From the NCBI GenBank assembly GCA_965219345.1, contig OZ244732.1, positions 1,184,001-1,248,000 on the forward strand: DNA of 64,000 nucleotides. The letters are read 5' to 3'. This document shows, piece by piece, positions 34,854 through 51,660 of the stretch. Position 1 is the stretch's first letter. The number at the start of each line of letters is the position of its first letter. Below the pieces are notes generated by a model that saw nothing but the letters and a program-made list of their open reading frames with translations, searched no databases and was not told the origin of the DNA. The DNA comes from Nitrosopumilus sp. (GTDB lineage: Archaea > Thermoproteota > Nitrososphaeria > Nitrososphaerales > Nitrosopumilaceae). The translations under genes and the position numbers were made by a program.

Positions 34854-34937
34854 TGGATCATAATATTAGAGAATAGTATTAAAACATAGATTAAATTGGT
34901 TCTGTGTAATCTTCGGGTGCCGATTTTCTCAAAAAAA

Positions 34938-36056
34938 TTACTCAGCAGCCGTACTGAGTGAGGCGTTTTGGATTATGGTTTTCCACTTGTTAACCCCATC
35001 AACCTCAATGAGTGATGCTTCCGCAGGGGTCTTGCCTTTGAGTGCAGAGTGCTTCTTGGTATAGTTGTAATAGACTCTCATGCCATCCAGTATGGCTGTG
35101 TCCATTTTCTTCAGGCCTCTAAAGACTTTCTCACGGTCACGGATTTCAGAATTTAACCTCTCTTGCTTGTTGTTATTGTCTTCGTCTCGTTTCCCAGCCA
35201 GGTGAATGTGCTTTACGTGGTTTGTCTTTTTGCCAAAGACTTTTTTGGATGATTTGGCATAGGCTGGAAGCCCGTCAGTGATGAAGTTTCTGGGGGATTT
35301 GCCAGCTTGTTTCTTGGTCATGTCAAGGAGTGAATCCGCATTGTGCTGGAATTTGTTGTCGGCTAGGTCACTAGCCAGCCAATACCTCGTGTCATCATCC
35401 ATGCTTGCAAACAGATAGCATTGCTTTCCGTTTATCTTTATCCACATCTCATCAGCCCTGAACCAGTTGCCAACCCTAGGTACTATTCCGTTGAGGTATT
35501 CGGCAGCCAATTTGGAGTATTTGTCGACCCAGTTGTAAACGGTCTTGTGGCATACGTCTATTCCCATCATCTCATAGTGGTCGGCAATATCCCTGACTGA
35601 CATTCCTGTAAAATACATCTGTAGATCTCCGGTGATTATCTTATCGTCAAACTGTTTCTTCTCGAAGCCAAAGTTTGCTGTAAAACGTCTCTTGCAGTCA
35701 AGACACTGGAACCTCTGGACATTGCCATTCTTGGTCTGTCTTGTGCCGTTCTTCTTGATATTGCCAGAGTCACAATACTTGCAGAGTTGCAGCTTGGATC
35801 TTTCCAAGATTCTAAACATGTTGTTTCTGTAACCGCCATTTCGTCTCATCATATCCAAGACAATCTTGATGTGCTTGCAGTCTGCGTTTCTGCTGGTATG
35901 GTCTGGATACTCACATACCAGCTTCTCACCATTTGTGACTGTATAGAATTTTGTAGGATCGGTTTGTGATCTTACTTTGAATCTGTCGTGGTCAATCTGG
36001 GAGCAATAACCGCTTGTTGACATGATTTGTTTTGCACGTTCCATTCTTGGGTTCAT
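34938..36056 (-). CDS. DDE transposase, IS6/IS240-like, with SWIM-like and IS1-type Zn-ribbon N-terminal domains
   Basis: CKH; CKYC...CLDC; HTH; ADEMW, ITDG, ERLN catalytic motifs; YN..K.H..L.G.TPAE. Confidence 0.92.
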   Translation of the reverse strand: MNPRMERAKQIMSTSGYCSQIDHDRFKVRSQTDPTKFYTVTNGEKLVCEYPDHTSRNADCKHIKIVLDMMRRNGGYRNNMFRILERSKLQLCKYCDSGNIKKNGTRQTKNGNVQRFQCLDCKRRFTANFGFEKKQFDDKIITGDLQMYFTGMSVRDIADHYEMMGIDVCHKTVYNWVDKYSKLAAEYLNGIVPRVGNWFRADEMWIKINGKQCYLFASMDDDTRYWLASDLADNKFQHNADSLLDMTKKQAGKSPRNFITDGLPAYAKSSKKVFGKKTNHVKHIHLAGKRDEDNNNKQERLNSEIRDREKVFRGLKKMDTAILDGMRVYYNYTKKHSALKGKTPAEASLIEVDGVNKWKTIIQNASLSTAAE

Positions 36057-36105
36057 GCGTGATTCCCCGTGAAAATTAATATAGAATGAAAAGAAATGAC
36101 ATGTG

Positions 36106-36191
36106 CGGCAGGAGTGGGATTTGAACCCACGATCTCGGCGAGAGACACAGATTCTGAATCTGTCGCTTTAACCTTGCTAAGCAATCCTGCC
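36106..36191 (-). tRNA. Non-canonical type II tRNA, anticodon CAG, discriminator G73 (Leu anticodon, Ser-like body)
   Basis: Acceptor GGCAGGA/TCCTGCC+G; D stem GCTT/AAGC with GG; anticodon arm ACAGA-TTCAGAA-TCTGT; variable arm TCTC-TCGCC-GAGA; T arm GTGGG-TTCAAAT-CCCAC. Confidence 0.88.
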
Positions 36192-36196
36192 ATGTA

Positions 36197-36246
36197 TATA
36201 TTATGCGTACACATAATATAATCCTTGCTATTAAGGGTACACATAA
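36197..36246. promoter_or_regulatory. Divergent promoter/operator: 24-bp near-perfect palindrome plus a GTACACATAA direct repeat
   Basis: TATATTATGcGTACaCATAATATA at 36197-36220; GTACACATAA at 36207 and 36237. Confidence 0.55.
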
Positions 36247-36270
36247 ATATCAACAATTCCTACGTATTGC

Positions 36271-36435
36271 ATGACAAGGTGGAAAAAAGACGAGACGGAA
36301 TTTCCGGTCAGCGTAAGCTCCAACGGACATACAAAGTCATGCAGGATTCCAAAGCCCATACTTGAACTTCTTGACAACCCAAACTCGCTAAAATTTATCG
36401 TCAAGGGGAAGCATGTAGAGATCGAGGGCGAATGA
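36271..36435 (+). CDS. Small AbrB/MazE-like DNA-binding protein (54 aa; not in the ORF track)
   Basis: MTRWKKDETEFPVSVSSNGHTKSCRIPKPILELLDNPNSLKFIVKGKHVEIEGE, with an IPK.I...L pattern. Confidence 0.65.
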   Translation: MTRWKKDETEFPVSVSSNGHTKSCRIPKPILELLDNPNSLKFIVKGKHVEIEGE

Positions 36436-36613
36436 TAGTGCTTTCATCTAATAGAATTAAGCGAGAATTAAGCGAGAATTACCCTCGACATGGGGGCTTT
36501 AGTTTCTCCAAATCTAAATGCAACCATATTGAAAACAAATCCCTAATTCCAAACAATCCTCCGAATAAGTTTGGGATTTTCACTGCAACAGGCAAAAAGG
36601 TGGTTAATCCACT

Positions 36614-37621
36614 ATGACATCAAACAATGCCTCACTTAGCAATGCAAGAGCTACCAAACAAGACGAGTTTTACACGCAACTTGTAGATATTGAGAACGAG
36701 CTTAAACACTATCAAAATCACTTTAGTGACAAGACTGTCCTTTGCAACTGCGATGATCCACGAATCAGCAGCTTCTTCCACTATTTTTCATACAACTTTG
36801 AAAGACTAAAACTGAAAAAACTCATCGCAACCTGTTATAAAAACCAGCAGATGGATTTGTTTAGCCGGAATAAATCAGAATGTGCAATATATCTCGAATA
36901 CAATGGTGACAAAAACCAAAACAAGGTTCCTGATCCTAAAGAAATTGGAATACACTACTTTAAAAAAGACGGGGATTTTCGCAGTGATGAATGCATTGAA
37001 ATCCTGAAACGTGCAGATATTGTAGTGACGAATCCACCATTCTCACTATTTCGGGAATACGTTGCACAGTTGATAAAATACAAAAAACACTTTCTAATCA
37101 TAGGAAATCAAAATGCCATAGCCACCAGAGAAATATTTCCTTTAATCAAAGATAATAAAATGTGGTTAGGTGAGAGTATACATAGTGGGGATAGAGAGTT
37201 TGGTGTTCCAGACAATTACACATTAAATGCTGCTGGATTTAGGATCGATGGGGATGGAAGAAAATTCATAAGAGTAAAAGGGGTTCGTTGGTTTACCAAC
37301 ATTGATTACAAGGAACGCCATAAAGATTTGATCCTTTACAAAAAATACAACAAGACAGAATATCCAAAATATGACAATTACAATGCCATAAACATCAACA
37401 AAACAAAAGAAATTCCAATGGATTATGACGGAATAATGGGTGTGCCAATAACATTCGTGGATAAATACAATCCAGAACAGTTTGAAATAATAGATTTGAT
37501 TAATCGATATAGTTTGTTGGACGGCCCGACACCCACAACGAAAGGAAAATACCTAACAGAATTAGGAGATAAACGAAAATATTCTCGCATCATAATCAAA
37601 CACAAAAGGATTGCCCGTTAA
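36614..37621 (+). CDS. Adenine-specific DNA methyltransferase, EcoRI-family-like
   Basis: DEFYT, VLCNCDDP, GDFRS.EC, DIVVTNPPFSLFREY, MGVPITF.DKY. Confidence 0.88.
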   Translation: MTSNNASLSNARATKQDEFYTQLVDIENELKHYQNHFSDKTVLCNCDDPRISSFFHYFSYNFERLKLKKLIATCYKNQQMDLFSRNKSECAIYLEYNGDKNQNKVPDPKEIGIHYFKKDGDFRSDECIEILKRADIVVTNPPFSLFREYVAQLIKYKKHFLIIGNQNAIATREIFPLIKDNKMWLGESIHSGDREFGVPDNYTLNAAGFRIDGDGRKFIRVKGVRWFTNIDYKERHKDLILYKKYNKTEYPKYDNYNAININKTKEIPMDYDGIMGVPITFVDKYNPEQFEIIDLINRYSLLDGPTPTTKGKYLTELGDKRKYSRIIIKHKRIAR

Positions 37622-38703
37622 TGAATATAGAACTCAAAAAAATCACTGTCAAGGAGTTATCCAAAGATTATGTGGATAATGCAGAAGAAGGCGTTTTAGG
37701 CTATGGGGGTAAACTAGACATTAGACCACCCTATCAAAGGGAATTTATTTACAAAGATAAACAACGGGATGCGGTAATTGATACAATCACCAAGAAGTTC
37801 CCACTCAATGTCATGTATTGGTCAGTACGGGATGATGGAAATTTTGAGATTATCGACGGGCAGCAAAGGACAATATCCGTCTGTCAATATATCACTGGGG
37901 CATTTTCGTTTAATTCAAAATATTTCCACAATCTACAGGATGACGAACAGAAAAAAATTCTCGATTATGAGTTGATGGTTTACCTGTGCAGTGGAACGGA
38001 CAGTGAGAGGCTAAAGTGGTTTGAGACTATCAATATTGCAGGAGAAAAATTAACTTCCCAAGAACTTAGAAACGCAGTCTATTCAGGATCATGGATTTCA
38101 GATGCCAAACTCTATTTCAGTAAAAGGAACTGCGCAGCTTATGGAATTGCCAGTGATTATGTAAGTGGCTCTGCTATCCGTCAGGAATATCTTGAAACAG
38201 CTATAAGGTGGATTTCAAAGGATAGCATAAATGAATACATGGCCAAACACCAGCACGACCAAAACGCCAACATATTGTGGAATTATTTTCAGGCCGTGAT
38301 TAACTGGGTTGAGACCACATTCAAAATCAAGAGAAAGCAGATGAAAAATGTGGATTGGGGTCCCCTGTATAACAAATACAATGATACACAGATGGATACA
38401 GAACAGATTGAGGAAGAAACGAAAAAACTGTTTTTGGATGATGATGTTACCAAGAAAAGCGGGATTTATCCATACATACTTACACGGAATGAAAAATATC
38501 TCTCGATCCGTTCATTTACAGAAAATATGAAGCAAAAAGTCTATGAATTACAGAAGGGCAAATGTGTAAAATGTCAGGAACATTTTGATCTATCTGAAAT
38601 GGAGGCAGACCATATCAAACCTTGGCATGAAGGCGGTAAAACGACAGAGGAAAACTGTCAGTTACTTTGTAAGAACGACAATCGTGCAAAGTCAGGAAAA
38701 TAG
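37621..38703 (+). CDS. DUF262 (ParB-like) plus HNH endonuclease (GmrSD-like restriction protein)
   Basis: RP.YQREF, IDGQQR, F..IN..G..L; C-terminal CxxC, DHI.PW..GG.T...NCQLLC. Confidence 0.85.
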   Translation: MNIELKKITVKELSKDYVDNAEEGVLGYGGKLDIRPPYQREFIYKDKQRDAVIDTITKKFPLNVMYWSVRDDGNFEIIDGQQRTISVCQYITGAFSFNSKYFHNLQDDEQKKILDYELMVYLCSGTDSERLKWFETINIAGEKLTSQELRNAVYSGSWISDAKLYFSKRNCAAYGIASDYVSGSAIRQEYLETAIRWISKDSINEYMAKHQHDQNANILWNYFQAVINWVETTFKIKRKQMKNVDWGPLYNKYNDTQMDTEQIEEETKKLFLDDDVTKKSGIYPYILTRNEKYLSIRSFTENMKQKVYELQKGKCVKCQEHFDLSEMEADHIKPWHEGGKTTEENCQLLCKNDNRAKSGK

Positions 38704-38725
38704 GAAATCCGTCTAGGTACAATCT

Positions 38726-38773
38726 AGAGAAGATCCACATTCCACACCCATATCACGATAACTTAGCAGAACC
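38726..38773. mobile_element. Orphan right end of a type-B element nested inside element A
   Basis: AGAGAAGATCCA...ATAACTTAGCAGAACC matches 51513-51559. Confidence 0.8.
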
Positions 38774-38999
38774 CGTGCCCGTACAGGTCAAACGCTGGAA
38801 GCACAAGGTCGGGCGGCCAGAGATAGACAAGTTTAAGACGGCAGTGGAGAGGGACAGGAAGAAATCCGGTATTATAGTGGCACATGAGTTTAGTAGGGAT
38901 GCAATTAACGAGGCTGCACGAATTAAGAGTGATACTGGCATATCAATAGAATTGAGACCGGTGAAGGACGTTTTTGGTTGGTCTAAATACGATGTTTAG
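38774..38999 (+). pseudogene. C-terminal fragment of an Mrr-like restriction endonuclease domain
   Basis: PVQVKR...VGRPEIDKF..A......GIIVA..FS; begins right at the nested IS end and lacks its N-terminus. Confidence 0.7.
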
Positions 39000-39156
39000 C
39001 TAGGCATAAATTTCATCTCGGAGAAAATTTACATTCCATGCCAGCACCCGAAGATTACACAGAACCGACAATAGGTTCTATTATCAATGGCTATGAACTT
39101 GATGAAATATTTACCTTTGAGTTTTTTGGTCTATATCTTTAACTGGATCGACAAGA

Positions 39157-39633
39157 TTATAGCTCTCTCCATTCTATTCCTATATGTTTAGGTGTATTGG
39201 TAAGCACACCTGTTGCACAGCACAGCATTACTTTGAGTCCAGTTTCGGTTTTTCCTCTTATTTGGGCATTACTAGCTTTACTGTGTCCTGATTTTGCCTC
39301 TATCCACATAAAGTTCTCTACTTTAACATTCTCAATATTATCTAATGTGCAATTTCCCCCAAGATCATACCCTAAAAAGTCATAAAGATATCTAGGCCTG
39401 TACATATTGCCAACTTTGACTATCTTGCATATCTCATGATGTATGTCATTTGGTATTTTTATTGATATTCTGCTTTCTTTAAAGTCAAATAATATATCTT
39501 TTACAAATAATCCTCCTTGTAATATTCTATCAAAGTCAACACATGCAATGTTTTTCTCAAAAAGAAACTTTTTACAGTAAATTTCGCCTAGCATTCCCAA
39601 TAATTGGTCATCTACATTAAGATAGTGTAGCAT
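39157..39633 (-). CDS. Putative PD-(D/E)XK nuclease-fold protein
   Basis: G.LGE, YDF, WIEAKSG...S.AQ. Confidence 0.6.
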   Translation of the reverse strand: MLHYLNVDDQLLGMLGEIYCKKFLFEKNIACVDFDRILQGGLFVKDILFDFKESRISIKIPNDIHHEICKIVKVGNMYRPRYLYDFLGYDLGGNCTLDNIENVKVENFMWIEAKSGHSKASNAQIRGKTETGLKVMLCCATGVLTNTPKHIGIEWREL

Positions 39634-39741
39634 ATCTATATTTTTTTGATTTTTTATTAAAGGCTTTTTACTGTAATATTCCTTACAATTTTGCTTGGAA
39701 TTGGTTTAATTCCCATTAAAACTTGTGATAATTCGTTGATT

Positions 39742-39885: not shown

Positions 39886-39898
39886 TATTTATCACACA

Positions 39899-40374
39899 TT
39901 ATACAAAGGTCTCAAGTGTTTGTTGTGCTATCATGGTTTTTCTAGGCTTTGTTTTTTTCACTGCATCTCTAGTGTCTTTTTGCCAGTGTTTGATTCTACT
40001 TGTGCTTATTTTGCAATTATGAGAGTCTTGCTCAATTAGGATATAGTTTCTTTGTAGTAATGTTGCTGCAATACCAGTTGTACCAGATCCTGCAAATGGA
40101 TCAAGTATTGTATCTCCTTTTCTACTTTCCATTGTGATTAGATGTGCCATTAGTTTGATTGGCTTTATGGTTGGATGTGTATTTTTTCTCGGGGTCTCGC
40201 CTCTGTGACCTGGGGTGTCGTTGCTTTTCTTACGTCCTTTTGATGTTATTTTTTCCATTGGCATATTCTCTAATCCTTTTTCTTTTTCTGCACGTGATGG
40301 CTTTGGGGTAATTACAAACTGTGAGATGTATTGTTTTTGCCACCACATATCAAGATCAAAGTATCTAGGGAAAG
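39899..40374 (-). pseudogene. C-terminal fragment of an N6/N4 (beta-class) DNA methyltransferase
   Basis: HPTIKPIKLM, ILDPFAGSGTTG; the catalytic DPPY half is missing and the gene is cut at the edge of repeat copy 2. Confidence 0.8.
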
Positions 40375-41275
40375 AAGCTATGACAATAATATAATAAATA
40401 ATATTCAACTTAATCTGCTTTTACTAAAAAATAACATTCATCACTCAACAGTGTTACAATAGCACCATTACAGTTCTCAGCATGTTCTTGAAATTCATAT
40501 TCATACATATTCTTTATAATGATCGTACCATGCCATACGTCAAAATTAAATCTATATTCATATTCATCAGAAAAAAAACGACCATCACCCCAATACCTAG
40601 GTGGTGCAATATCAATAGGAATTTGTCCTTTATCTATTAAAGATAGAGTATCTGGAATGCCGTCATAGAAATGGATTAACTTACTGTCTGCCAGTTTAAG
40701 ATACCAAATATCAGCATTAGAACGGTCATCATTTTTAGCATAGTTTGGTATGAAATCACAATAACGAAATGAAAAATGATTAAATTCAATTATAGAACCA
40801 AATGATTTCCTTGCCGGTGTTTTTAAGTTATAAATAGAAAGCATTTTGAATAAATCCATACAGTCTTGTGGATCTGTTGATATGTTAAATTCAAGTAAAC
40901 ATGGTTTAGATGAATTTATCACATAAACACATAGAACATCACCATTTCTTGAAATTGCACAATCAGAGTTAATATCAAGAAGATCAATGAATTCTGTACT
41001 GCATTCTTTTGCAAGGTTTACACCATCAGTAGCAAATCCTCTCTCTGTTAATTTTTTGATTGAATCATCATATACATAAATTATATGATTGTTTTGTTTC
41101 TTCATTACAGAATAATCTTCAAACTTGTAAGCATATACTTCGGCACTTGTAAAACCCATAACTAAAAAGCATACAGGAATTACTAAAAGAAATAATTTAT
41201 TGTACATTATTGAAGTTGTAATGCAGTTTTTGTATTTTCCCAAGATGAAAATATCTTATATGGTGTATCATCAGG
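40375..41275. repeat. 901-bp direct repeat, copy 2
   Basis: Matches 31919-32819. Confidence 0.95.
40410..41207 (-). CDS. Secreted Cys-rich hypothetical protein, copy 2 (diverged orphan paralogue)
   Basis: 17 amino-acid differences from copy 1; preceded by only the last ~22 codons of the protease gene. Confidence 0.7.
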   Translation of the reverse strand: MYNKLFLLVIPVCFLVMGFTSAEVYAYKFEDYSVMKKQNNHIIYVYDDSIKKLTERGFATDGVNLAKECSTEFIDLLDINSDCAISRNGDVLCVYVINSSKPCLLEFNISTDPQDCMDLFKMLSIYNLKTPARKSFGSIIEFNHFSFRYCDFIPNYAKNDDRSNADIWYLKLADSKLIHFYDGIPDTLSLIDKGQIPIDIAPPRYWGDGRFFSDEYEYRFNFDVWHGTIIIKNMYEYEFQEHAENCNGAIVTLLSDECYFLVKAD

Positions 41276-41743: not shown

Positions 41744-43108
41744 CTATCTACTACGGCCGCCGTAGCTATTTTTACCGCCTCCATCACTGTATCTTCTTCT
41801 ACCGCCTCCATCACTGTATCTTCTTCTACCGCCTCCATCACTGTATCTTCTTCTACCGCCTCTATCATCTCTTGAATCCCCACTGTTTGATCTTCCATAT
41901 CTTCCAGAACGCCCTCCTCTGGAATAGTTAGATCTTGATTGACCTCCATATCTTCTTGATGGCATTTGTCTTTTTAGAGGATCTGGAATTGAAATTTGAA
42001 TTCCCATTGCTTCATTCAAATCTTTGATAGGAACTTTGATTTGACGTTTGATAAGATTCCAATCCCCAACAGATGAATATGAAACAAATGTTATTGCTTT
42101 ACCTTCTGCACCTGCTCTAGCTGTTCTTCCAATTCTGTGAAAATATGTCAGTTCTTGATTTGGAACATCATAATTGATTACTAGTTCTACTCTTGGAACA
42201 TCTATGCCTCTTGAGGCTACATCTGTTGCTACAAGAATGTCAGCTTTCCCACTTCGGAATTTTCCCATTGCTTGCTCTCTCCTGTGTTGTGACATGTCTC
42301 CTTCTATTGCTACTGCATTGAACTTTTCTTGATGAAGGAATTTTGCAACATCTCTAGTTCTATATTTTGTTGAGCAAAATACAATAGCTTGATGTTTTAC
42401 CGGCTTGATGAAATCAATTAGATACTTGAACTTGTCTCTGTCTTTAATCACTAAAAATGATTGATCTATTCCTTCCCCACTAAGATCATCCGCATCCAAT
42501 AGAAACTGTTTTGGATTATTCAGATATTCTTCAGAGAGTCTTAGAATCTCCGTTGGCATTGTTGCTGAATACAATGACATTACTCTCTCTTCTGGTGCCA
42601 GATCTAAAATAAATTGGATATCATCAATGAATCCCATATCTAACATTGTATCTGCTTCATCAAGAACAATATGGGTGACATCTCTTAGTTCTATTGTACC
42701 TCTTTTGAGATGATCTATCAGTCTACCTGGTGTTGCTACGACAATTTCTACTCCCCTGTCAAGAGCGTCCAATTGGATTCCCATTCCTTGTCCTCCATAA
42801 ACCGTCGCCACTCTGATTTTGGTATATTTTCCAAATTTCTTTATTTCATCAGTAATCTGTATTGCCAGCTCTCTTGTTGGAGCCATGATCAATCCTTGAA
42901 TTCCATTTTTTGGTTTGATATCTTGTAACATTGCTAATGCAAAAGCAGCAGTCTTACCAGAACCTGTATGGGCTTGTCCTACAACATCCCTTCCTGTAAG
43001 TAATACTGGAATTGCTGCTTCTTGTATTGGAAATGCTTCTTCATACCCAAGATCGGTAATTCCTTTCAGTATCTCTTCTTTTAATCCTAATTCTTGAAAT
43101 TTTGTCAT
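41744..43108 (-). CDS. DEAD-box RNA helicase with R/G-rich tail
   Basis: Q motif, AHTGSGKT, PTRELA, DEAD, SAT, HRIGRTAR. Confidence 0.95.
   Translation of the reverse strand: MTKFQELGLKEEILKGITDLGYEEAFPIQEAAIPVLLTGRDVVGQAHTGSGKTAAFALAMLQDIKPKNGIQGLIMAPTRELAIQITDEIKKFGKYTKIRVATVYGGQGMGIQLDALDRGVEIVVATPGRLIDHLKRGTIELRDVTHIVLDEADTMLDMGFIDDIQFILDLAPEERVMSLYSATMPTEILRLSEEYLNNPKQFLLDADDLSGEGIDQSFLVIKDRDKFKYLIDFIKPVKHQAIVFCSTKYRTRDVAKFLHQEKFNAVAIEGDMSQHRREQAMGKFRSGKADILVATDVASRGIDVPRVELVINYDVPNQELTYFHRIGRTARAGAEGKAITFVSYSSVGDWNLIKRQIKVPIKDLNEAMGIQISIPDPLKRQMPSRRYGGQSRSNYSRGGRSGRYGRSNSGDSRDDRGGRRRYSDGGGRRRYSDGGGRRRYSDGGGKNSYGGRSR
41773..41862. repeat. 27-bp tandem repeat x3.3 (GGRRRYSDG) in the helicase tail
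   Basis: taccgcctccatcactgtatcttcttc at 41773, 41800 and 41827; partial copy at 41854. Confidence 0.95.
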
Positions 43109-43210: not shown

Positions 43211-44047
43211 TTACAAACCTAATTGAGAATCAATAACTTTTTTGAAACTTTCAAATGGCTGGGCTCCCTTTAACTCAACATATCCTATTTGATCATTACC
43301 TACAAAGAATCCCGGTGTTCCTGAAACTCCATAGTCTCTTCCATCATCAAGATCTTTTCTAATTTCTTCAATATACTTTCCATTAGTAAGACATGAATCA
43401 AAAACTTCTCGTTCTAGCTGCATCTCTTCAGCATATTGACTAAACAATGATAATGCAACAGCAGTTTCTTGACTGTTCCATTCATTTTGTTTTTCAAATA
43501 GTACGTCATGCATCTCTTTGAATTTGCCTTGTTCATTTGCACATTCTGATGCAATAGACGCAGGTACTGCATTTGGATGAATACTTTGAATTGGGAAATC
43601 TCTGAAAACCAAGTTGACTTTTCCTTGGTCTATGTATTCCTCGTAAATTAGTGGAAGTGTTTGAGTGTAGAATCTTGCACAAAATGGACATTGAAAGTCT
43701 GAAAACTCAATTATTGTGATTGGTGCGTCTATGTTTCCAATAATTGGGTCATTATCTACTGAAATTTTCATTGGAAGTTTTGGTTGTTCTGCGGGTAATT
43801 GATTTTGTAGTATTTTGAGTTCTAATTTGGCTATTGCCTCTTCCAGATCTTCCTCTGAAATCTGATTTGAGCTTTGATTTGATATGTATGATCCTGCAAA
43901 AAACGCTGCAATTCCTATCACTATAATTAATCCTATAATTAATCCGTTAAATGTTGATTTTTTTACAGATATCTTCCCAGAATCATTTTGATTTAACTCA
44001 AAATCATCAGAATCATTTTGATTTAACTCAAAATCATCAGAACTCAT
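43211..44047 (-). CDS. Membrane-anchored DsbA-family thiol-disulfide oxidoreductase
   Basis: FSDFQCPFC, GVSGTP.F, GAQP. Confidence 0.9.
   Translation of the reverse strand: MSSDDFELNQNDSDDFELNQNDSGKISVKKSTFNGLIIGLIIVIGIAAFFAGSYISNQSSNQISEEDLEEAIAKLELKILQNQLPAEQPKLPMKISVDNDPIIGNIDAPITIIEFSDFQCPFCARFYTQTLPLIYEEYIDQGKVNLVFRDFPIQSIHPNAVPASIASECANEQGKFKEMHDVLFEKQNEWNSQETAVALSLFSQYAEEMQLEREVFDSCLTNGKYIEEIRKDLDDGRDYGVSGTPGFFVGNDQIGYVELKGAQPFESFKKVIDSQLGL
43978..44042. repeat. Exact 30-bp tandem duplication (SDDFELNQND x2)
   Basis: cagaatcattttgatttaactcaaaatcat occurs twice. Confidence 0.95.
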
Positions 44048-45493: not shown

Positions 45494-45501
45494 AAGCCAA
45501 A

Positions 45502-46884: not shown

Positions 46885-46986
46885 TTATGCAAGAAGGTCA
46901 AGATTTTGCTAATTTTTTAAATCGGTTATGAAAAATGTCTATCTCAATTAAAGTATAAATAATGATATTCTTTCATCAATTCAGAA

Positions 46987-47538
46987 ATGTTTGACTTTGT
47001 AGCCAAGAAATTATTCCTTACAAAAGGTAAAGGGATTCATGCAGATAGATTGACAAGTTTTGAATATGCTCTTAGAGATGCTGGAATAGCAGGAACAAAT
47101 CTTGTGTTGATTTCAAGTATCTTTCCACCACATGCTAAATTAATCTCTAGAAAAGAAGGTCTAAAAAAAATTAAACCAGGCCAGATTCTATTCACAATTT
47201 ATTCCAAGAATCAAACTAATGAACCACATAGAGTGTGTGCTGCATCAGTAGGTCTTGCACAACCAAAAGATGTGAAAAGATATGGTTATCTATCCGAATA
47301 CGAATCTTTTGGTCAAAACGAAAACCAAGCAGGTGACTATGCCGAAGACATTGCAGCACAAATGCTAGCATCTTCCTTAGGAATTCCATTTGATGTTGAC
47401 AAAAACTGGGATGAAAAAAGACAGCAATGGAAAATTTCAGGCCAGATCTATAACACTCATAATATTACTCAATCAACTAAAGGTAACAAGGATGGAAAAT
47501 GGACAACTGTATTTGCAGCAGCGGTACTCTTACTGTAA
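46987..47538 (+). CDS. pdaD: Pyruvoyl-dependent arginine decarboxylase
   Basis: LTSFE.ALRDAGI...NLV..SSI.PP, GYLSE, WTT..AAAV. Confidence 0.9.
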   Translation: MFDFVAKKLFLTKGKGIHADRLTSFEYALRDAGIAGTNLVLISSIFPPHAKLISRKEGLKKIKPGQILFTIYSKNQTNEPHRVCAASVGLAQPKDVKRYGYLSEYESFGQNENQAGDYAEDIAAQMLASSLGIPFDVDKNWDEKRQQWKISGQIYNTHNITQSTKGNKDGKWTTVFAAAVLLL

Positions 47539-48690
47539 TTACTTTTTGTATCCTTTAAGATAAAACATCGCAGCTGCAATTGCCACTATTGTTATTATAA
47601 TTACTACAGCAATTGATTCGTCAAACTCAACATTTTCAGGTTGTGTAGTTTGCTCTCCACCTAGTGAAAATTCTAATTCTTGTTTGCTTACTGATACTTT
47701 TTCACCAAAAATGTATTTACCTTGAATCCTTTGTCCTTCTTCAGGATCAAAAACCCATCCTTCTTTTGAAATGTCTGCAGGAATCTTTTCATTTTCTATG
47801 ATTTGTGTAGGGACAATATTTCCTTTGACATCTGAAACATTTGTATTCTCAGATGATAATACTATCACTTGAATTATTGAATTTAGGGGATACAGTCCTG
47901 ATGAAAAATAATCTGATCTCTTTAGATTTTCAACTTTGAGAAATTCTAATGGGCTAATTTCAGAAATTATTGTGCCTTTGTTTGGGTAATCAACTGATAA
48001 TTTTAACTGTAAAAGTGATTTTGATTCTAATGCGATAAACGAAAATGTCATTTTTGAGTTTTCTTCAAATGATAGATCCTTTGCGACATCATAAAATCCT
48101 CCTCCGTCTCTAATTATCTTTGGAATAAGTATTGTTGAAATCTTTTCATACATTGAATTTGTGTCTTCCATAGGCATTGTGTACACTGCTGAAATTATGC
48201 CCTTACTTGAAATTACTCCCGAAGTTTCAAGTGCTTCATTTATTTGATTACTACTGTGGATGAAAACCGAATGAAATTTAGCATCTGTGTCGAATGCCTG
48301 ATTAATTTCATCAATGTACAAATCACCAATCTCTTTTGTAGAATCTTGAATTGCAATAATTCCCTTATCTGCAAAATCTCTTTCTACATTTATCATGATA
48401 CATGATTGGTCAACAACTCCTAGAACACATTGGTCGTGATTAGTCAAAACTATGGCTTTAATTCTCTCGTTTTCTCTAATTTTTTGCTCCAATTCTGCAG
48501 GAATTCTAATTTCTTGAGTGTTAGTACTTTGTAATGTAATTGACGCTGTAACATTTTGTGAGATGCTATTGTCTACAATTATCTGTGCATTTTCCTGAAA
48601 AGTTGCAAGACCGAGTTCTTGTGAATAGGCATAATTTGTAGAAATTCCAATCAATGCAATTAATGCAAAGAAAAATACCTTTTTTCGCAT
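47539..48690 (-). CDS. Secreted, C-terminally anchored hypothetical protein
   Basis: Signal peptide and C-terminal TM helix followed by KGYKK. Confidence 0.75.
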   Translation of the reverse strand: MRKKVFFFALIALIGISTNYAYSQELGLATFQENAQIIVDNSISQNVTASITLQSTNTQEIRIPAELEQKIRENERIKAIVLTNHDQCVLGVVDQSCIMINVERDFADKGIIAIQDSTKEIGDLYIDEINQAFDTDAKFHSVFIHSSNQINEALETSGVISSKGIISAVYTMPMEDTNSMYEKISTILIPKIIRDGGGFYDVAKDLSFEENSKMTFSFIALESKSLLQLKLSVDYPNKGTIISEISPLEFLKVENLKRSDYFSSGLYPLNSIIQVIVLSSENTNVSDVKGNIVPTQIIENEKIPADISKEGWVFDPEEGQRIQGKYIFGEKVSVSKQELEFSLGGEQTTQPENVEFDESIAVVIIITIVAIAAAMFYLKGYKK

Positions 48691-48739
48691 AAGTTGTCAC
48701 TCTGGAAATCAAATTATTAAATTTACTCTTATTTTGGGA

Positions 48740-48788
48740 GGTGTCAAGTTATGGTGACCTGGCGAAGGGTGTCAAGTCGGTGACCTGG
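48740..48788. repeat. Imperfect tandem repeat GGTGTCAAGT-n-GGTGACCTGG x2 (possible mobile-element end remnant)
   Basis: Copies at 48740-48762 and 48768-48788; GC-rich against the background. Confidence 0.55.
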
Positions 48789-48789
48789 G

Positions 48790-49146
48790 TGGGATCTAAC
48801 ATCTTCGTGTGCTAGAACACACTGACAGAGTCAGAACTTCTCGCTTGAAGAGGGATCCTTTACAGACAGATATCACCTGAGAATCTTCAATGGTGGTCAG
48901 GACACACACAGTGGTGGATTCAACTACTGGTCAGTCGGTGCTATACACAGAGAAAACTGTACTCCTTCATGTCACACACTGTATTCTAATGCTTGGGAAA
49001 CAGCCGAGTCACACCTAAAAAGCGATCTTAGCTCAACACTTGGCATTCTAAGTGTGGGAACAATCAATTTATCCAATTCAGGATCTTATGGTTCTCCAAC
49101 TTCATACTGGAACAATGGAATAGCAGGTAAAATCAAGGTACAGTAA
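48790..49146 (+). pseudogene. 3' fragment of a foreign gene (RYHLRIF...WSVGAIHRE...)
   Basis: Open frame 48826-49146 with no start codon and an in-frame stop just upstream. Confidence 0.55.
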
Positions 49147-49226
49147 TATGCTTCCTTTTTTCTTTCTTTCACTATGAGGTTCTGCTAAGTTATGGGAATA
49201 TGAATTATCCAAATTGAATTTTGTAC

Positions 49227-50665
49227 CTATTCGGAATCAATCCTGCCGAACTTCATGCCTTCCTGGACCAAAAGTGCATTAAGTTCTGCCATGATAAGTT
49301 TTCCACCTTTTCTGCGGTTGCAGTTACCGCAAAGTAGCTGAAGATTCCCATCGTCATCAATGCCTCCCTTTGCCTTTGGCATTATGTGGTCTACTTCAAG
49401 ATCTTTGAACTGGTAGTGGTACCTGCATCCGTTGCAACAGCCTTGTTGTATACCGTATAGGGTATGTTTGATATTTTTCGATCTGTTTCCCTTTCTATTT
49501 GGTATGTCAGTTCTATGTATGACCTGCCCTGCTCCTGTGATAAATTTGGCAATGCCTGCATCCTTTCTTAGTCTTTGCTCGATTAGGGAATAGGCCCGTT
49601 CTGATATGTCACACCCTATCCATTGTCTGCCCAGTCTTTCTGCGGCCAGACATGCAGTGGCACACCCATAAAAAGGATCAAATACAATTTCACCAACACC
49701 ACTGCTACTTTCAATTATTCTTTCCAACAATGCAAGTGGTTTTTGGGTAGGATAGCCAAGTCTTTCTTCACCTTGAACATTCTGTATATCTGTCCAAATA
49801 TTCTGTAATGGTATCCCTTTTGCCTCATCAAGATATATCTTGTATCTGGGAATGCCGTTCTTGCTCTTTGGCATATGTATTCTTCCTTTTTTTTCCAATT
49901 CAAGCATTGATTCCAACGGCCTTTTCCATATTCTTACGTGTCCTTTGTACTCATATTCATATCCGCCGCCAGCCAGGCTTTCTGCGGTTAACATTATGGA
50001 ATTATACCTGCCACGTTCATCCTCGTTTCTAAAATATCTTTTAATATCCTTCTCTGAGTATGGCTTGTAGACGGCATGCCAGTTATAATTTTTTGTCTTT
50101 GTGTAAAATAATATTTGATCAGACACCTTGCCATATCTCTTTCCGTCATTATGGACGTTTGGAGTCCTTCTCCATGTAATATCATTACAAAATGATCCAG
50201 ATCCAAATATTGCATCAAGAACCAGCTTGAGATAGTGACTCATGGTAGTATCACAGTGCAGGTACAACGAACCTGTCGGTTTCAGAATCCTGTACATCTC
50301 CAAAATCCTGATTGCCATGTATATCAGATACGACATGGCAGAATCCCCGCCTATTTTTCCAGCCGTACCTATGATTGAATACAGCGGATAATTCTGTTCT
50401 GCAATTTCACCCCACCACGACGTATCAATGTCACTCAAGGTCCATGTGTCCCTGAACTCTGCACCTGCAGCCTTGGAACCGATAGGTGCCGCATAGTTAT
50501 GCTTTGAGTTGAAGGGAGGATCAAGATAGATTAAATCAACAGAATCATCTTCCATGCCCCTCATAACAGGCAGATTGTCTTTTATGAAGATTGTACGGTT
50601 TTTGATTCCATTTGATTTCGGGGGGGGGGGGCGGGCGGTGTGGGGATTCGTGCTTTTGAGGTCAT
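49227..50665 (-). CDS. N6/N4 (beta-class) DNA methyltransferase fused to HNH nuclease; frameshifted at a G12 tract near the 5' end
   Basis: DLIYLDPPFNS, YPTQKP..LLERII, FDPF.G, C-terminal CNGC..DHI.P.AKGG...NLQLLCG.CN. The likely start at 50665 is out of frame by 1 nt. Confidence 0.85.
50620..50631. repeat. G12 homopolymer
   Basis: 12 consecutive G in AT-rich DNA, inside the 5' coding region of the MTase gene. Confidence 0.9.
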
Positions 50666-50805
50666 CTTACACGTTCCTTATTCCAATATGGGGAATTGCA
50701 TTTCTTATTGTTACAGTTCTTTGGTGATTCATTTCTGCTATACCATATTTCACTGCATCTGTTACACTCATGTCTCCAATATGCACCATCTACTTTCATA
50801 CTCAT
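50662..50805 (-). CDS. Small Zn-finger protein (47 aa; not in the ORF track)
   Basis: MSMKVDGAYWRHECNRCSEIWYSRNESPKNCNNKKCNSPYWNKERVR; its stop overlaps the MTase ATG (ATGA). Confidence 0.75.
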   Translation of the reverse strand: MSMKVDGAYWRHECNRCSEIWYSRNESPKNCNNKKCNSPYWNKERVR

Positions 50806-50924
50806 ATCGATACCGTAAATTCATCATTATATAATCATTTACTACATATAGCCAAAAAGTATAGTATATATGTAGGTAAAAAATATAGTATGATATGAAA
50901 TGTGTAATGATGAAAAATAAAATC

Positions 50925-51250
50925 AAAGGCATGGAAAAATAACTACAAGGCAAAAAATCCACTTTGGAAAGACACTGAACATGTCAGACACATTCACATG
51001 AAAGGTGACAAAAACAATAATCGCGTGGAACGTTTGAACGGTACAATCAGGGACAGGGAAGTCTCATACAGGGGGATAAAGAAAATGAAGTCCACTCTTT
51101 GCAGGATTTCAGACATTCTACAATTTCTCAAAGAAGCATGGAGGTATAGGCAAAAAGACACCAGCTGAGATGGCAGATATTCTAGTTGATGGGAATAACA
51201 AGTGGAAGACCGTAATCCAAAATGCCAGTCTAAACAAAAATTACGTCTAG
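50925..51250 (+). pseudogene. C-terminal remnant of an IS6-like transposase
   Basis: HVRHIHMKGDKNNNRVERLNGTIRDRE..RG.KKM, frameshift near 51100, then YNF..KH....KTPAE.A...VDG.NKWKTVIQNASL; homologous to the transposase at 34938-36056. Confidence 0.88.
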
Positions 51251-51290
51251 GCATAGAAACTTTTTATTTAGTAGTTTGACTAATAAAAAT

Positions 51291-51383
51291 GGGCTTAAGT
51301 CCCTCTCTGTCTTGGTCGTTGTGGTTCGCTATCACAATATAGACAGTAAAAAATGAAGCCTTATACCCCGCATGGCATAAGGT
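51291..51383 (+). ncRNA. Candidate structured RNA (three hairpins) between the transposase remnant and the tRNA
   Basis: GGGC/GTCC; CTGTCT..TTGTGGT/ATCACAA..AGACAG; GCCTTAT/ATAAGGT; TATA-like TTTTTATTTA at ~51261. Confidence 0.4.
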
Positions 51384-51416
51384 GGATTTTTATTATTTTT
51401 AATTTTTCAAATCTTT

Positions 51417-51498
51417 GCTACGATACGCAAGCTCGGTATGCGGGGAGCCTCCTAAGCTTCTGCCATGCGGTTCGGGGGTTTAAATCCCTCTCGTAGCG
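51417..51498 (+). tRNA. Non-canonical tRNA, anticodon CCT, 13-nt variable arm, G73 (Arg anticodon, type II body)
   Basis: Acceptor GCTACGA/TCGTAGC+G; D stem CGCA/TGCG; anticodon arm GGAGC-CTCCTAA-GCTTC; variable arm GCC-ATGC-GGT; T arm GGGGG-TTTAAAT-CCCTC (C56 replaced by T). Confidence 0.8.
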
Positions 51499-51660
51499 TT
51501 GTTTTTCAATTCAGAGAAGATCCATGTTTCATTCTATATCCCCATAACTTAGCAGAACCACATTTTGAAATGGTATAATTAGATGAACTTTTTTTATTTT
51601 TTTACGAAAATGCATTATCTGCTAGCTAATATTGTTATTTATGCAAAAATCTAGTTAGTA

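What the first reader, a model, noticed from the sequence alone, without database searches (positions are those of the whole stretch)
34898..51559. Candidate new system: IS6-like cargo transposons that each carry a non-canonical tRNA plus methylase/HNH defence genes
Seen: two elements with different perfect TIRs (A 34898-39066, 23 bp; B 49178-51559, 19 bp; both begin GGTTCTG). Each has a homologous DDE transposase (intact ORF in A, remnant in B), a small putative DNA-binding ORF oriented away from the transposase (AbrB-like in A, Zn finger in B), DNA-methyltransferase plus HNH cargo, and one tRNA gene on the transposase strand inside the TIRs. The two tRNAs differ in sequence and in position (5' vs 3' of tnp), yet both have a long variable arm and G73 with a non-Ser anticodon (CAG, CCT). 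Known: tRNAs near mobile elements are usually integrase target sites, and DDE IS elements do not need them. SerRS ignores the anticodon and reads the long variable arm. Inference: the tRNAs are selected cargo. Possible roles are mistranslating tRNAs, rare-codon supply for the cargo, decoys or replacements against tRNA-targeting nucleases, or processing signals for the tnp mRNA. I am not aware of a described archaeal IS family with this design, but I could not search.
Basis: partly seen in the sequence, partly recalled or inferred. Interest (0 to 1): 0.9.

Follow-up and report, generated by a model that had tools for sequence, protein, structure and literature searches.

The report
Transposons carrying odd tRNA genes
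Two jumping-gene elements in a marine ammonia-oxidising archaeon each carry, besides DNA-methylase/nuclease genes, an extra well-preserved tRNA gene whose body and anticodon do not match, and such tRNAs recur in related elements, so they look like selected cargo of unknown purpose.

Summary
Elements A (34898-39066) and B (49178-51559) have the stated inverted ends. Both carry an IS6-type DDE transposase (intact in A, remnant in B), methylase/HNH cargo, a small DNA-binding ORF and one internal long-variable-arm tRNA with G73 (CAG, CCU).

Neither tRNA is the host's standard gene. A canonical Leu(CAG) and an intron-bearing Arg(CCU) lie elsewhere. In at least 6 genus relatives the site of B is empty.

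The link recurs. In this genome 7 of 11 odd tRNAs, against 0 of 41 standard ones, lie within 300 bp of a transposase match. In relatives, elements bounded by 8-bp target duplications enclose such tRNAs with other anticodons.

Selection is evident. Stem changes are all compensatory, and four copies of A's tRNA keep 80 of 86 columns while their flanks are scrambled.

Carriage is a minority trait: 0 of 80 metagenome loci have it. It is not needed for transposition and is not tied to the methylase cargo. Similar tRNAs also sit beside IS66 and IS1595 transposases.

Function is unresolved. The identity elements point to serine charging, as in bacterial allo-tRNAs, but the elements' own genes use the standard code. 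I found no prior description.

The parts
34898..34920 (.). Left inverted end of element A (GGTTCTGTGTAATCTTCGGGTGC)
   Evidence: 23-nt perfect inverted repeat with 39044-39066
34938..36056 (-). IS6-type DDE transposase, 372 aa. It has an N-terminal CxC..CxH-like finger and an IS1/IS1595-type zinc ribbon. Tyr50 stands where at least 90% of 13 homologues have Cys.
   Evidence: Pfam PF13610; NCBIfam transpos_IS6 at 120.8 bits and the Zn domain at residues 92-127; alignment A2
36057..36104 (-). Spacer with a TATA-like box (TTCTATATTAATTTTC) about 25-30 nt before the transposase ATG. The T-rich stretch just after the tRNA is a likely terminator. Both readings are inferred.
   Evidence: Read from sequence; conserved in A, C, L001, L003 and L010
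36106..36191 (-). Class-II tRNA, anticodon CAG, discriminator G73, G30:C40, 16-nt variable region, 7/5 stems. Its T arm and variable arm resemble the host tRNA-Leu.
   Evidence: ARAGORN; RF00005 at 58.8 bits; arm table; 80 of 86 columns invariant over four copies in three genomes
36192..36270 (.). Divergent promoter region between the tRNA and the small ORF. A TATA-like TTATATTA lies about 23-30 nt upstream of the tRNA (inferred).
   Evidence: Read from sequence. It is homologous to the transposase promoter of tRNA-free relatives L039 and L043.
36271..36435 (+). 54-aa AbrB/MazE/VapB-fold small protein, a conserved partner gene of this transposase lineage and probably its regulator
   Evidence: tblastn matches at E<1 in 31 loci fetched up to then plus 4 places in G000; 23-sequence alignment; AF2 pLDDT 88; Foldseek top hits MazE/VapB/AbrB; no Pfam or PDB sequence hit
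36432..36617 (+). 61-aa ORF of unknown function
   Evidence: ORF list; no Pfam hit
36614..37621 (+). EcoRI-like adenine DNA methyltransferase
   Evidence: PF13651, E 1e-137
37621..38703 (+). GmrSD_N (DUF262-type) + HNH nuclease
   Evidence: PF03235 and PF01844
38728..38773 (.). Right end of a B-type element inside A, evidence of a nested insertion
   Evidence: 25-nt repeat at 88% with 49178-49202; alignment with the right ends of B and L024
38775..38999 (+). C-terminal fragment of an Mrr-type restriction endonuclease, cut off at the B-type end
   Evidence: PF04471 profile positions 52-101 of 115
39044..39066 (.). Right inverted end of element A
49178..49202 (.). Left inverted end of element B (GGTTCTGCTAAGTTATGGG...)
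49227..50564 (-). N6/N4 DNA methylase fused to an HNH nuclease (445 aa)
   Evidence: PF01555 and PF01844
50662..50805 (-). 47-aa zinc-ribbon ORF (CxxC...CxxxxC). A related sequence lies upstream of the transposase in L005, L007 and L013.
   Evidence: alignment A3
50950..51250 (+). Transposase remnant (residues 270-368) with a frameshift
   Evidence: tblastn; translations
51255..51504 (+). About 250 bp present between the transposase stop and the right end in B but absent from the intact sibling element C1:745195-749172. It holds the tRNA and an AT-rich upstream region.
   Evidence: Alignment A4. Contigs of runs X1, X2 and X4 join 51242 to 51514 with 25 other letters; they probably come from the sibling copy.
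51417..51498 (+). Class-II tRNA, anticodon CCU, G73, G30:C40, 13-nt variable region. The T loop reads TTTAAAT (U56). D and T arms resemble the host tRNA-Ser.
   Evidence: ARAGORN; RF00005 at 44.9 bits; arm table; 5 compensatory stem changes against the homologue at C1:1718374
51536..51559 (.). Right inverted end of element B

Best explanation
A and B are two separate, partly decayed members of a zinc-finger-extended IS6-type transposon lineage that is common in Nitrosopumilaceae. Unlike classical IS6 elements, these carry passenger genes inside their inverted ends. The passengers are mostly DNA methylase plus nuclease modules, and a small divergent DNA-binding gene accompanies the transposase.

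Some sublineages have also acquired a separately transcribed class-II tRNA gene. It sits either between the promoter and the transposase start (as in A) or between the transposase stop and the right end (as in B).

Shown:
- These tRNA genes are extra to the host's standard set.
- They move with the element.
- They are under purifying selection for a full tRNA fold, and in A's type for nearly the whole sequence.
- They outlast decay of the transposase.
- Their anticodons change between close relatives.

Inferred: they act in trans as real tRNAs. They carry the anticodon-independent serine identity set (long variable arm, G73, G30:C40) and lack the discriminator expected for their anticodon. SerRS therefore most likely charges them, and they would decode CUG (A) and AGG (B) ambiguously at a low or regulated level. 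That makes them an archaeal, 7/5-shaped counterpart of bacterial allo-tRNAs. What benefit this gives the element or the host is not known.

On the confidence figure: I put about 0.85 on the shown part (selected, mobile, non-core tRNA cargo of IS6-type passenger transposons) and about 0.35 on the inferred serine-charging, ambiguous-decoding mechanism. The single figure given is a compromise between the two.
For: Family and mobility.
- The transposase matches IS6 profiles.
- The ends begin GGTTCTG.
- 8-bp target duplications flank sibling elements that enclose a tRNA: C1:1729074-1732317, L003, L004, L019 and L015.

Extra to the core set.
- A canonical Leu(CAG) and an intron-bearing Arg(CCU) lie elsewhere.
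- B's site is empty, with flanks 1-20 nt apart, in G242, G380, G013, G394, G079 and G038.

Association.
- 7 of 11 odd tRNAs against 0 of 41 others lie within 300 bp of a transposase match. Fisher p = 2.5e-6; 2.1% of the genome lies that close.
- 6 of 21 related genome loci have a long-arm tRNA within 120 bp of the transposase.
- In G151, 4 of 5 odd tRNAs adjoin IS6 parts.

Selection.
- Six positionally homologous tRNAs have 102 of 102 stem cells paired. 9 of 17 stem positions show changes on both sides and none a one-sided change.
- B against its homologue: 34 of 34 paired, 5 compensatory.
- A's tRNA type keeps 80 of 86 columns over four copies in three genomes. The flanks keep 23 of 108 and 28 of 115. 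The transposases of A and C are only 75% identical in DNA.
- A copy in G063 shows uncompensated decay.

Acquisition.
- Relatives L039 and L043 have the same small ORF and transposase without the tRNA.
- B has about 250 bp more than its intact sibling.

tRNA-like detail. All 18 examined have a 7-nt anticodon loop with U33 and a purine at 37, GG in the D loop and a T loop.

Serine identity.
- G73 occurs in 15 of 18 in the table. By my reading of that table, G30:C40 occurs in 10 of the 16 that are IS-linked or odd, A and B included.
- The review PMC9976931 (passages read) names the variable arm, G73 and G30-C40 as serine determinants. It names G73 as an anti-determinant for archaeal LeuRS.

Anticodon switching. 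In four near-identical tRNAs, 4 of 7 loop columns vary against 6 of 88 elsewhere (p = 0.002).
Against: No RNA data exist: no RNA holder was listed. So expression, CCA ends and charging are all untested.

Carriage is rare.
- 0 of 80 metagenome loci, and at most 1 ambiguous case in 20 further genome loci.
- A's tRNA type was found in 5 of 401 family genomes.
- Elements with target duplications but no tRNA exist: L006, L009 and C1:1007879-1010720.

The elements' own transposase genes use the cognate codons at columns where homologues have Leu, Ile or Phe. Serine insertion would therefore harm them.

Several anticodons (UAU, UAA, AUC) read common host codons, at 21-46 per 1000. Efficient serylation would be toxic there.

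Position 37 does not follow the usual rules for the codon read.

A's type keeps Leu-box anticodons (CAG, and GAG in G039) and resembles the host tRNA-Leu. That would also fit leucine charging if the thaumarchaeal LeuRS tolerates G73.

One odd tRNA (C1:1038939) lies 9 bp outside a GGTTCTG end. With the tests used, four in relatives showed no IS feature within 1.3 kb.

Only ARAGORN and Rfam were used. No isotype models (tRNAscan-SE) were available.
Confidence: 0.5

Rival explanations
1. Codon-supply tRNAs. The cargo tRNAs are charged with the amino acid of their anticodon and raise translation of the element's genes. Those genes are richer in G+C than the host, as with tRNA genes carried by phages.
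For: - The transposase genes have 42-51% G+C against 36% for the genome.
- A's transposase uses CUG for 7 of 22 Leu codons, against 10% in the genome. B's methylase-HNH uses AGG for 9 of 29 Arg codons, against 15%.
- CUG and AGG are the rarer host codons, at 8.2 and 5.5 per 1000.
- A's tRNA type keeps Leu-box anticodons (CAG, GAG) and has a Leu-like T arm and variable arm.
- The elements' own genes use the standard code.
Against: - The carried anticodon does not track codon use. L001 carries UAU yet is richest in CUG and AGG, and tRNA-free L002 has the same usage.
- G73 replaces the A73 found in all three host Leu tRNAs examined. B and its homologue lack the class-I shape, and by my reading the A20, of the host Arg tRNAs.
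- Anticodons such as UAU, UAA and AUC read codons that are already common.
- An A34 anticodon (AUC, L019) is not a normal archaeal decoder; this rests on recall.
Confidence: 0.2
2. A role outside decoding. The tRNA-shaped RNA would be a decoy or replacement against anticodon-loop nucleases or other tRNA-targeting toxins, or a regulatory RNA. It is recognised through its anticodon loop and need not be charged.
For: - Change is concentrated in the anticodon loop of near-identical paralogues (4 of 7 against 6 of 88 columns). This looks like diversifying pressure on what the loop is recognised by.
- The tRNAs persist beside dead transposases: B, L145, L155 and L182.
- The neighbouring cargo is defence-type.
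- Bacterial allo-tRNAs with UAU were inactive in translation assays and lie near toxin-antitoxin loci (PMC5389517, passages read).
Against: - No tRNA-cleaving nuclease (PIN, HEPN or PrrC type) was found in the elements examined.
- Conservation of the whole tRNA body, with intact D/T-loop contacts, fits many translation partners better than recognition of a single loop.
- A role acting in cis on the transposase mRNA is unlikely, because position and strand vary.
Confidence: 0.2
3. No function. These would be decaying duplicates of host Leu/Ser tRNA genes that transposons happened to pick up, or that lie next to preferred insertion sites.
For: - The anticodons seen lie at most one mutation from Leu (NAG, NAA) or Ser (GCU) anticodons (my reading).
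- Some copies are clearly degenerate: C1:334078 has a T stem with 3 of 5 pairs, L193 is decayed, L167 has a 6-nt loop.
- Transposons also land beside normal tRNAs. L124 has a canonical Ala tRNA 145 bp from a transposase.
- Carriage is rare.
Against: - Changes are compensatory only: 9 two-sided and 0 one-sided in one family.
- 80 of 86 columns are invariant while the flanks are scrambled.
- Anticodon-loop geometry is intact in all 18 examined.
- The CCU anticodon is kept across strongly diverged bodies: B, C1:1718374 and L159.
- The tRNAs lie inside elements that have target duplications.
Confidence: 0.07

Closest known systems
IS6 (IS6/IS26) family insertion sequences, especially the zinc-finger-extended clade h and the single passenger-carrying member ISDsp3 (Varani et al. 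2021, PMC7986276; passages read)
   Same: A DDE transposase with an IS6 profile match. Short inverted ends that begin with GG. 8-bp target duplications. An N-terminal zinc-finger extension giving a protein of about 340-370 aa. A 983-bp minimal relative occurs in the same genome.
   Different: These elements are archaeal (Nitrosopumilaceae); the review says the extended type is mostly clostridial. They are 2.4-5 kb long, with passenger genes inside one pair of ends as the rule rather than the exception. They have a conserved divergent small regulator gene, and some carry a tRNA gene. The word tRNA does not occur in the review. The NCBIfam score lies just under the family cut-off.
Bacterial allo-tRNAs (Mukai et al. 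2017, PMC5389517; review PMC7609411; passages read)
   Same: Long-variable-arm tRNAs with serine identity elements and many non-serine anticodons. UAU is frequent in both. They lie near transposon-related genes and AbrB/VapB-type loci, and their function is unresolved.
   Different: Allo-tRNAs have 8/4 or 9/3 acceptor/T stems and are bacterial. The tRNAs here have the standard 7/5 shape, are archaeal, and lie inside defined DDE transposons that have target duplications.
Nematode nev-tRNAs (Hamashima et al. 2012, PMC3333845; abstract seen in the listing) and the Ser-tRNA(CAG) of CTG-clade yeasts (recalled)
   Same: Class-II tRNAs whose anticodon (UAU, CCC, CAG) does not fit their charging identity, giving possible ambiguous decoding.
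   Different: Those are chromosomal eukaryotic genes, not cargo of prokaryotic transposons.
tRNA genes carried by phages and integrative elements
   Same: Extra tRNA genes travel on a mobile element.
   Different: Phage tRNAs are normally canonical for their anticodon. Here the discriminator and the class do not fit the anticodon, and the carrier is a small DDE transposon. This comparison rests on recall.

Membership tests
IS6 family | DDE transposase that matches the family profile | tested here: met
   Pfam PF13610 at 50.2 bits, cut-off 27. The best NCBIfam match is transpos_IS6, E 5.8e-35, covering 1-201 of 202 profile positions, but its 120.8 bits are under the equivalog cut-off of 125. 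D202, D261 and E299 with R306 are invariant in 13 homologues.
IS6 family | Short terminal inverted repeats with GG at the tips | tested here: met
   23-nt and 19-nt ends begin GGTTCTG.
IS6 family | 8-bp target-site duplication | tested here: inconclusive
   Absent at A and B themselves. Present at sibling elements C1:1007879-1010720, C1:1729074-1732317, L003, L004, L006, L009, L015 and L019.
IS6 family | Compact element of about 0.7-1.8 kb with only the transposase gene | tested here: not met
   A is 4169 bp and B 2382 bp, both with passenger genes. Siblings are 2.7-5 kb. A 983-bp version exists at C1:401802 and C1:1450318.
IS6 family | Transposition through cointegrates | not testable with these tools
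   No test was possible.
tRNA (Rfam RF00005) | Covariance-model score above the gathering score | tested here: met
   58.8 bits (A) and 44.9 bits (B) against 29.
Canonical tRNA-Leu(CAG) or tRNA-Arg(CCU) of the host | Discriminator and class as in the host's own isoacceptors, and the only copy in the genome | tested here: not met
   Host Leu tRNAs have A73, whereas A has G73. Host Arg tRNAs are class I, whereas B has a long arm. Canonical copies lie at C1:491458 and C1:638710.
allo-tRNA | 12-bp acceptor branch in 8/4 or 9/3 form | tested here: not met
   All have 7-bp acceptor and 5-bp T stems.
allo-tRNA | Long variable arm and serine identity elements with a non-serine anticodon | tested here: met
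   A and B both have the long arm, G73 and G30:C40, with anticodons CAG and CCU. The identity rules come from PMC9976931.
allo-tRNA | Charged with serine in cells | not testable with these tools
   No RNA or biochemical data were available.
AbrB/MazE/VapB (swapped-hairpin) DNA-binding domain | Profile or fold match | tested here: inconclusive
   No Pfam hit and no PDB sequence hit. The predicted fold (pLDDT 88) gives MazE, VapB and AbrB as top matches with prob 0.99 and TM 0.63, but E is 0.2.
Type II restriction-modification module | Methyltransferase together with a cognate endonuclease | tested here: inconclusive
   The methylase domains are clear. The partners are HNH, endonuclease VII, BglII or GmrSD-type nucleases. 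Cognate specificity was not tested.

The most novel reading that the evidence does not exclude
Transposon-borne tRNAs of serine type that switch anticodon are a mobile device for changing how chosen codons are read. One form would be a repressor-controlled toxic tRNA. The AbrB/VapB-fold protein shares the tRNA's promoter region and would hold it off. The tRNA would be released on stress or infection, corrupting protein synthesis at chosen codons. That would be a new kind of toxin-antitoxin or abortive-infection module riding with restriction-modification cargo. The concentration of change in the anticodon loop would then reflect selection for new target codons.
Probability: 0.12. Interest if true: 0.95.

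Novelty: new variant of a known kind. Interest (0 to 1): 0.74.

Why it matters
Three things would follow if this holds.

- It extends the puzzle of long-arm tRNAs with 'wrong' anticodons from bacteria (allo-tRNAs) and nematodes to archaea. Here it comes in a tractable setting: a small, defined transposon with a conserved neighbouring regulator, copies with different anticodons, and both living and decayed examples. The long-open question of what such tRNAs do becomes testable by tRNA sequencing, charging assays and proteomics in ammonia-oxidiser enrichments, or by expression in a model archaeon.
- It shows that thaumarchaea have passenger-carrying DDE transposons that spread restriction-modification modules. 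A 2019 survey said this class had not been detected in archaea (PMC6563490, passage read).
- If the tRNAs are charged with serine, genetic-code ambiguity would be a horizontally mobile trait.

Tried and rejected
Recoding lock. I tested whether the element's genes need its tRNA because conserved Ser positions are written with the cognate codon. In 8 transposases the cognate codons sit at Leu, Ile or Phe columns. The exceptions are few: L010 F19 (others mostly Ser), L191 F44 (4 of 21 Ser) and L191 F267 (others mostly Ser). Rejected.

Codon supply matched to the carried anticodon. No correspondence was found.

Anticodon loop paired to the element ends. CAGAA in A's loop equals the CAGAACC end motif, but no other anticodon fits. 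I treat this as coincidence; it was read from sequence only.

Initiator-like tRNA. None has the A1:U72 pair or the three G:C pairs that I recall as archaeal initiator marks.

One composite A-to-B transposon. Rejected, because housekeeping genes and a normal tRNA-Thr lie between them.

Expression. No RNA holder was listed for the stretch. The four DNA runs laid are contigs only. The joints at 34919>39045, 36083>36343 and 36365>38773 have sides of 20-23 letters, so I set them aside as repeat effects.

Viral carriage. Four weak transposase relatives turned up in viral contigs. I did not scan them for tRNAs or pursue them.

Empty site for A. Its left flank has no match in 100 genus genomes, so no test was possible.

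Small ORF. Pfam and PDB sequence searches gave nothing.

Literature. These searches found no description of tRNA genes inside IS6-type or other DDE insertion sequences of archaea:
- Thaumarchaeota / mobile genetic elements / IS6 / cargo
- long variable arm / anticodon / mistranslation / transposon / SerRS
- allo-tRNA / transposable / anticodon
- insertion sequence / tRNA gene / passenger / IS6 family / archaea
- V-arm-containing / tRNA / anticodon
- Nitrosopumilus / tRNA / transposase / variable arm, with 0 papers
- class II tRNA / transposase / anticodon
- mistranslating tRNA / mobile genetic element / archaea

Supplementary tables are closed. Table S1 of PMC6563490 lists the IS families per thaumarchaeal genome and could bear on whether IS6 elements were already counted. 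'IS6' as a whole word does not occur in that paper's main text.

Circularity. I called a tRNA 'odd' by its structure and anticodon, so 'none has a serine anticodon' is not a finding.

Full report
**What is there**

The window is G000:C1:1184001-1248000 of a 1.91-Mb, 36% G+C genome of the family Nitrosopumilaceae. The family follows from the record titles of related loci.

Element A (34898-39066) has perfect 23-nt inverted ends. Element B (49178-51559) has ends identical for 19 nt. All ends begin GGTTCTG.

A encodes a 372-aa DDE transposase. It matches Pfam DDE_Tnp_IS240, and its best NCBIfam match is the IS6 equivalog model, at 120.8 bits just under the cut-off of 125. An IS1/IS1595-type zinc ribbon lies in front of the catalytic domain. 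B keeps only a frameshifted remnant covering residues 270-368.

The cargo is an EcoRI-like methylase plus a GmrSD_N-HNH protein in A, and a methylase-HNH fusion in B.

A is nested. A B-type right end at 38728-38773 is followed by the C-terminal half of an Mrr nuclease gene. Neither element has a target duplication. Housekeeping genes and a normal tRNA-Thr lie between them, so they are two independent insertions.

**The small ORFs**

The 54-aa ORF that diverges from A's tRNA has no Pfam or PDB sequence match. It does have homologues next to the transposase in 31 of the loci fetched by then. Its predicted structure (pLDDT 88) is closest to MazE, VapB and AbrB. B has a 47-aa zinc-ribbon ORF in the same place, and a related sequence lies upstream of the transposase in L005, L007 and L013.

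**The two tRNAs**

Both are called by ARAGORN and score 58.8 and 44.9 bits on Rfam's tRNA model, whose gathering score is 29. Both have 7-bp acceptor, 5-bp anticodon and 5-bp T stems without a mismatch. Both also have a 7-nt anticodon loop with U33 and a purine at 37, a long variable region, G30:C40 and G73.

A's long arm is normal for a Leu anticodon. Its oddity is G73, where the three host Leu tRNAs examined have A73, together with a divergent body. B combines an Arg anticodon with a serine-like class-II body.

They are not the host's standard genes. A canonical Leu(CAG) lies at C1:491458. A class-I Arg(CCU) with an intron in the D loop lies at C1:638710-638803.

**B is an insertion**

In G242, G380, G013, G394, G079 and G038 the sequences that flank window 48736 and 51560 are 1-20 nt apart. 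G310, G325 and G362 hold other inserts of 1.4, 21 and 32 kb at that place. So the standard locus has neither the element nor the tRNA. A's left flank has no match in 100 genus genomes, so no such test was possible for A.

**Recurrence in this genome**

The transposase gives 44 matching pieces at about 30 places. Many pairs of GGTTCTG ends bound 2.8-4.2-kb elements that hold a full transposase and cargo. Two have exact 8-bp target duplications and a third has 7 bp.

One of them, C1:1729074-1732317, carries a tRNA that differs from A's at 1 of 87 positions. It sits at the same place, 49 bp before the transposase start.

Of 52 ARAGORN genes I classed 11 as odd. Nine have a long arm with a non-Ser/Leu anticodon or with a non-canonical body and G73. 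Two have 8-nt loops. Seven of the 11 lie within 300 bp of a transposase match, against 0 of 41 others (Fisher p = 2.5e-6). Only 2.1% of the genome lies that close.

An eighth (C1:951658) is 92 bp from a homologue of the small ORF. One (C1:1038939) lies 9 bp outside an end. The long Val(CAC) gene proved to be a standard gene with an insertion in the variable region, conserved in the relatives G151, G080, G152 and G153.

**Recurrence in relatives: loci centred on the transposase**

| Set of loci | Result |
|---|---|
| 21 genome loci (Nitrosopumilus / Nitrosopumilaceae MAGs) | 6 have a long-arm tRNA within 120 bp of the transposase: UAU twice and GAA upstream; UAA twice and AUC downstream, on either strand. 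A seventh (L015, UAU) lies inside an element with a target duplication. |
| 20 further loci from family genomes | 1 ambiguous case (L135, 95 nt, A73, possibly an intron). 1 normal Ala tRNA lies 145 bp from a transposase. |
| 80 metagenome loci | None has an adjacent tRNA. |

Target duplications flank L003, L004, L015 and L019, which hold a tRNA, and L006 and L009, which do not. The transposase family itself was found in 64 of 151 family genomes.

**Recurrence in relatives: survey centred on tRNAs**

I surveyed long tRNA hits in four genomes. This added 14 odd class-II tRNAs.

- Five have an IS6 transposase or small-ORF homologue within the flanks fetched.
- Three of the 14 adjoin an IS66 transposase and one an IS1595 transposase; two of these four are among the five above.
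- Four showed no IS feature with the tests used.

**Evidence for selection**

The upstream-type tRNAs of A, C, L001, L003, L015 and L010 are positional homologues. All 102 stem cells pair. Nine of 17 stem positions changed on both sides, and none on one side only. B and its homologue at C1:1718374 differ by five compensatory pairs.

Four copies of A's tRNA type in three genomes keep 80 of 86 columns. The adjoining 108 and 115 columns keep 23 and 28. Their small ORFs are only about 45-47% identical to A's. The transposases of A and C are 75% identical in DNA.

A copy in G039 has the anticodon GAG, further compensatory changes and the same layout. A copy in G063 shows uncompensated decay.

**How the tRNAs got in**

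Relatives L039 and L043 have the small ORF, the shared promoter and the transposase, but no tRNA. In A's lineage about 130 bp, comprising the tRNA and a second TATA-like box, sit at the former transcription start (the promoter reading is inferred).

B has about 250 bp, including the tRNA, between the transposase stop and the right end. Its intact sibling C1:745195-749172 lacks this segment.

**Anticodons**

Close homologues differ in anticodon. The upstream family has CAG, GAG, UAU and GAA.

A second family of 95-nt tRNAs has UAG, GAA, GAU and CAG on nearly identical bodies. In it, 4 of 7 loop columns vary against 6 of 88 elsewhere (p = 0.002).

Conversely, CCU, UAU and CAG each recur on strongly diverged bodies.

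All anticodons seen are at most one change away from Leu or Ser anticodons. This is my own reading.

**What they may do**

Position and strand vary, and each gene has its own TATA-like box. This argues for a trans-acting product rather than a signal within the transposase mRNA.

The identity elements fit serine: the long arm, G73 and G30:C40 (rules from PMC9976931). G73 is reported to block archaeal LeuRS. Serine charging, and so ambiguous decoding as shown for bacterial allo-tRNAs (PMC5389517 and PMC7609411, passages read), is the reading I rank first.

Three points weigh against it.
- The elements' own genes use the standard code at these codons.
- Several anticodons read common codons.
- Nothing is known about expression or charging.

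Codon supply has weak support: the transposase genes are richer in G+C and in CUG and AGG than the host, but codon use does not track the anticodon carried. A decoy or regulatory role would fit the concentration of change in the anticodon loop, but no matching nuclease was seen.

**Cargo in general**

Clear methylase and/or nuclease cargo occurs in 8 of 12 delimited elements examined: A, B, L003, L015, L006, L009, C1:1007879-1010720 and C1:1033406-1036785. The partners are HNH, endonuclease VII or BglII nucleases, or large fused enzymes of the Eco57I/MmeI type. The other four gave no such hit among the ORFs I scanned. In three of those four, some cargo ORFs were not scanned.

A 2019 survey stated that passenger-carrying transposons had not been detected in archaea, thaumarchaea included (PMC6563490, passage read). 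The IS6 review lists a single passenger-carrying member and never mentions tRNA (PMC7986276, passages read).

**Verdict**

The central inference, that the tRNAs are selected cargo, is well supported. The idea of one integrated tRNA-plus-defence system is not supported. The function remains open.

Noticed in passing
L151:1500-1595, L164:1301-1396, L165:1299-1395, L166:1300-1396 (genomes G151 and G080): A family of 95-nt long-arm tRNAs with nearly identical bodies but four different anticodons (UAG, GAU, CAG, GAA). About 350 nt upstream are shared by three of the four, and about 45 nt downstream by all four. In L164 an IS66-type transposase gene ends 63 bp after the tRNA, and the same spacing is seen in L145.
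   Followed up: partly
G000:C1:787949-788026 and C1:1438222-1438294: Two tRNA-like genes of 73-78 nt (RF00005 at 39 and 48.6 bits) that ARAGORN draws with 8-nt anticodon loops. Each lies 29-153 bp from a transposase remnant.
   Followed up: no
L182:1436-2437: After the same small ORF and CAG tRNA as in A comes an IS1595-type transposase in place of the IS6 one. Its first residues (MNAR...) resemble the start of the IS6-type protein, which suggests an insertion or fusion at the 5' end of the old gene.
   Followed up: partly
window 34938-36056 (residue 50): A's transposase has Tyr where at least 90% of 13 homologues have the second Cys of a CxC...CxH finger. The copy may therefore be impaired, although its frame is open.
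   Followed up: no
window 48737-51559: The gap between the gene at 47539-48690 and the one at 51661-52233 is an insertion hotspot in the genus. Most relatives are empty there, but G310, G325 and G362 hold 1.4, 21 and 32 kb. G000 has 440 unexplained bases (48737-49177) besides element B.
   Followed up: partly
window 50621-50640: A run of G (GGGGGGGGGGCGGGCGG) between the methylase-HNH gene and the zinc-ribbon ORF varies in length among contigs of the four runs: +G in two runs and +GA in one.
   Followed up: no
window 41762-41867 and 43978-44037: Three 27-nt tandem repeats lie at the 3' end of the DEAD-box helicase ORF. Two exact 30-nt repeats lie at the 5' end of the thioredoxin-like ORF, and one run's contig lacks one 30-nt unit.
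   Followed up: no
G000:C1:638710-638803 and C1:1280474-1280567: The standard tRNA-Arg(CCU) has an insertion of about 17 nt in the D loop. The standard tRNA-Val(CAC) has an insertion of about 20 nt in the variable region, conserved in G151, G080, G152 and G153. Both look like non-canonical introns, and the default ARAGORN settings missed or misread them.
   Followed up: partly
G000:C1:909864-912145: Eight evenly spaced hits, 306 bp apart, from a low-threshold ARAGORN run. They lie inside a 7.4-kb element bounded by GGTTCTG ends (C1:907137-914500). This looks like a tandem array of unknown nature.
   Followed up: no
window 39899-40408: A truncated N6/N4 methylase fragment (profile positions 136-219 of 221) lies just outside A's right end. 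Together with the strain-specific left flank, this suggests that A sits in a variable island.
   Followed up: no
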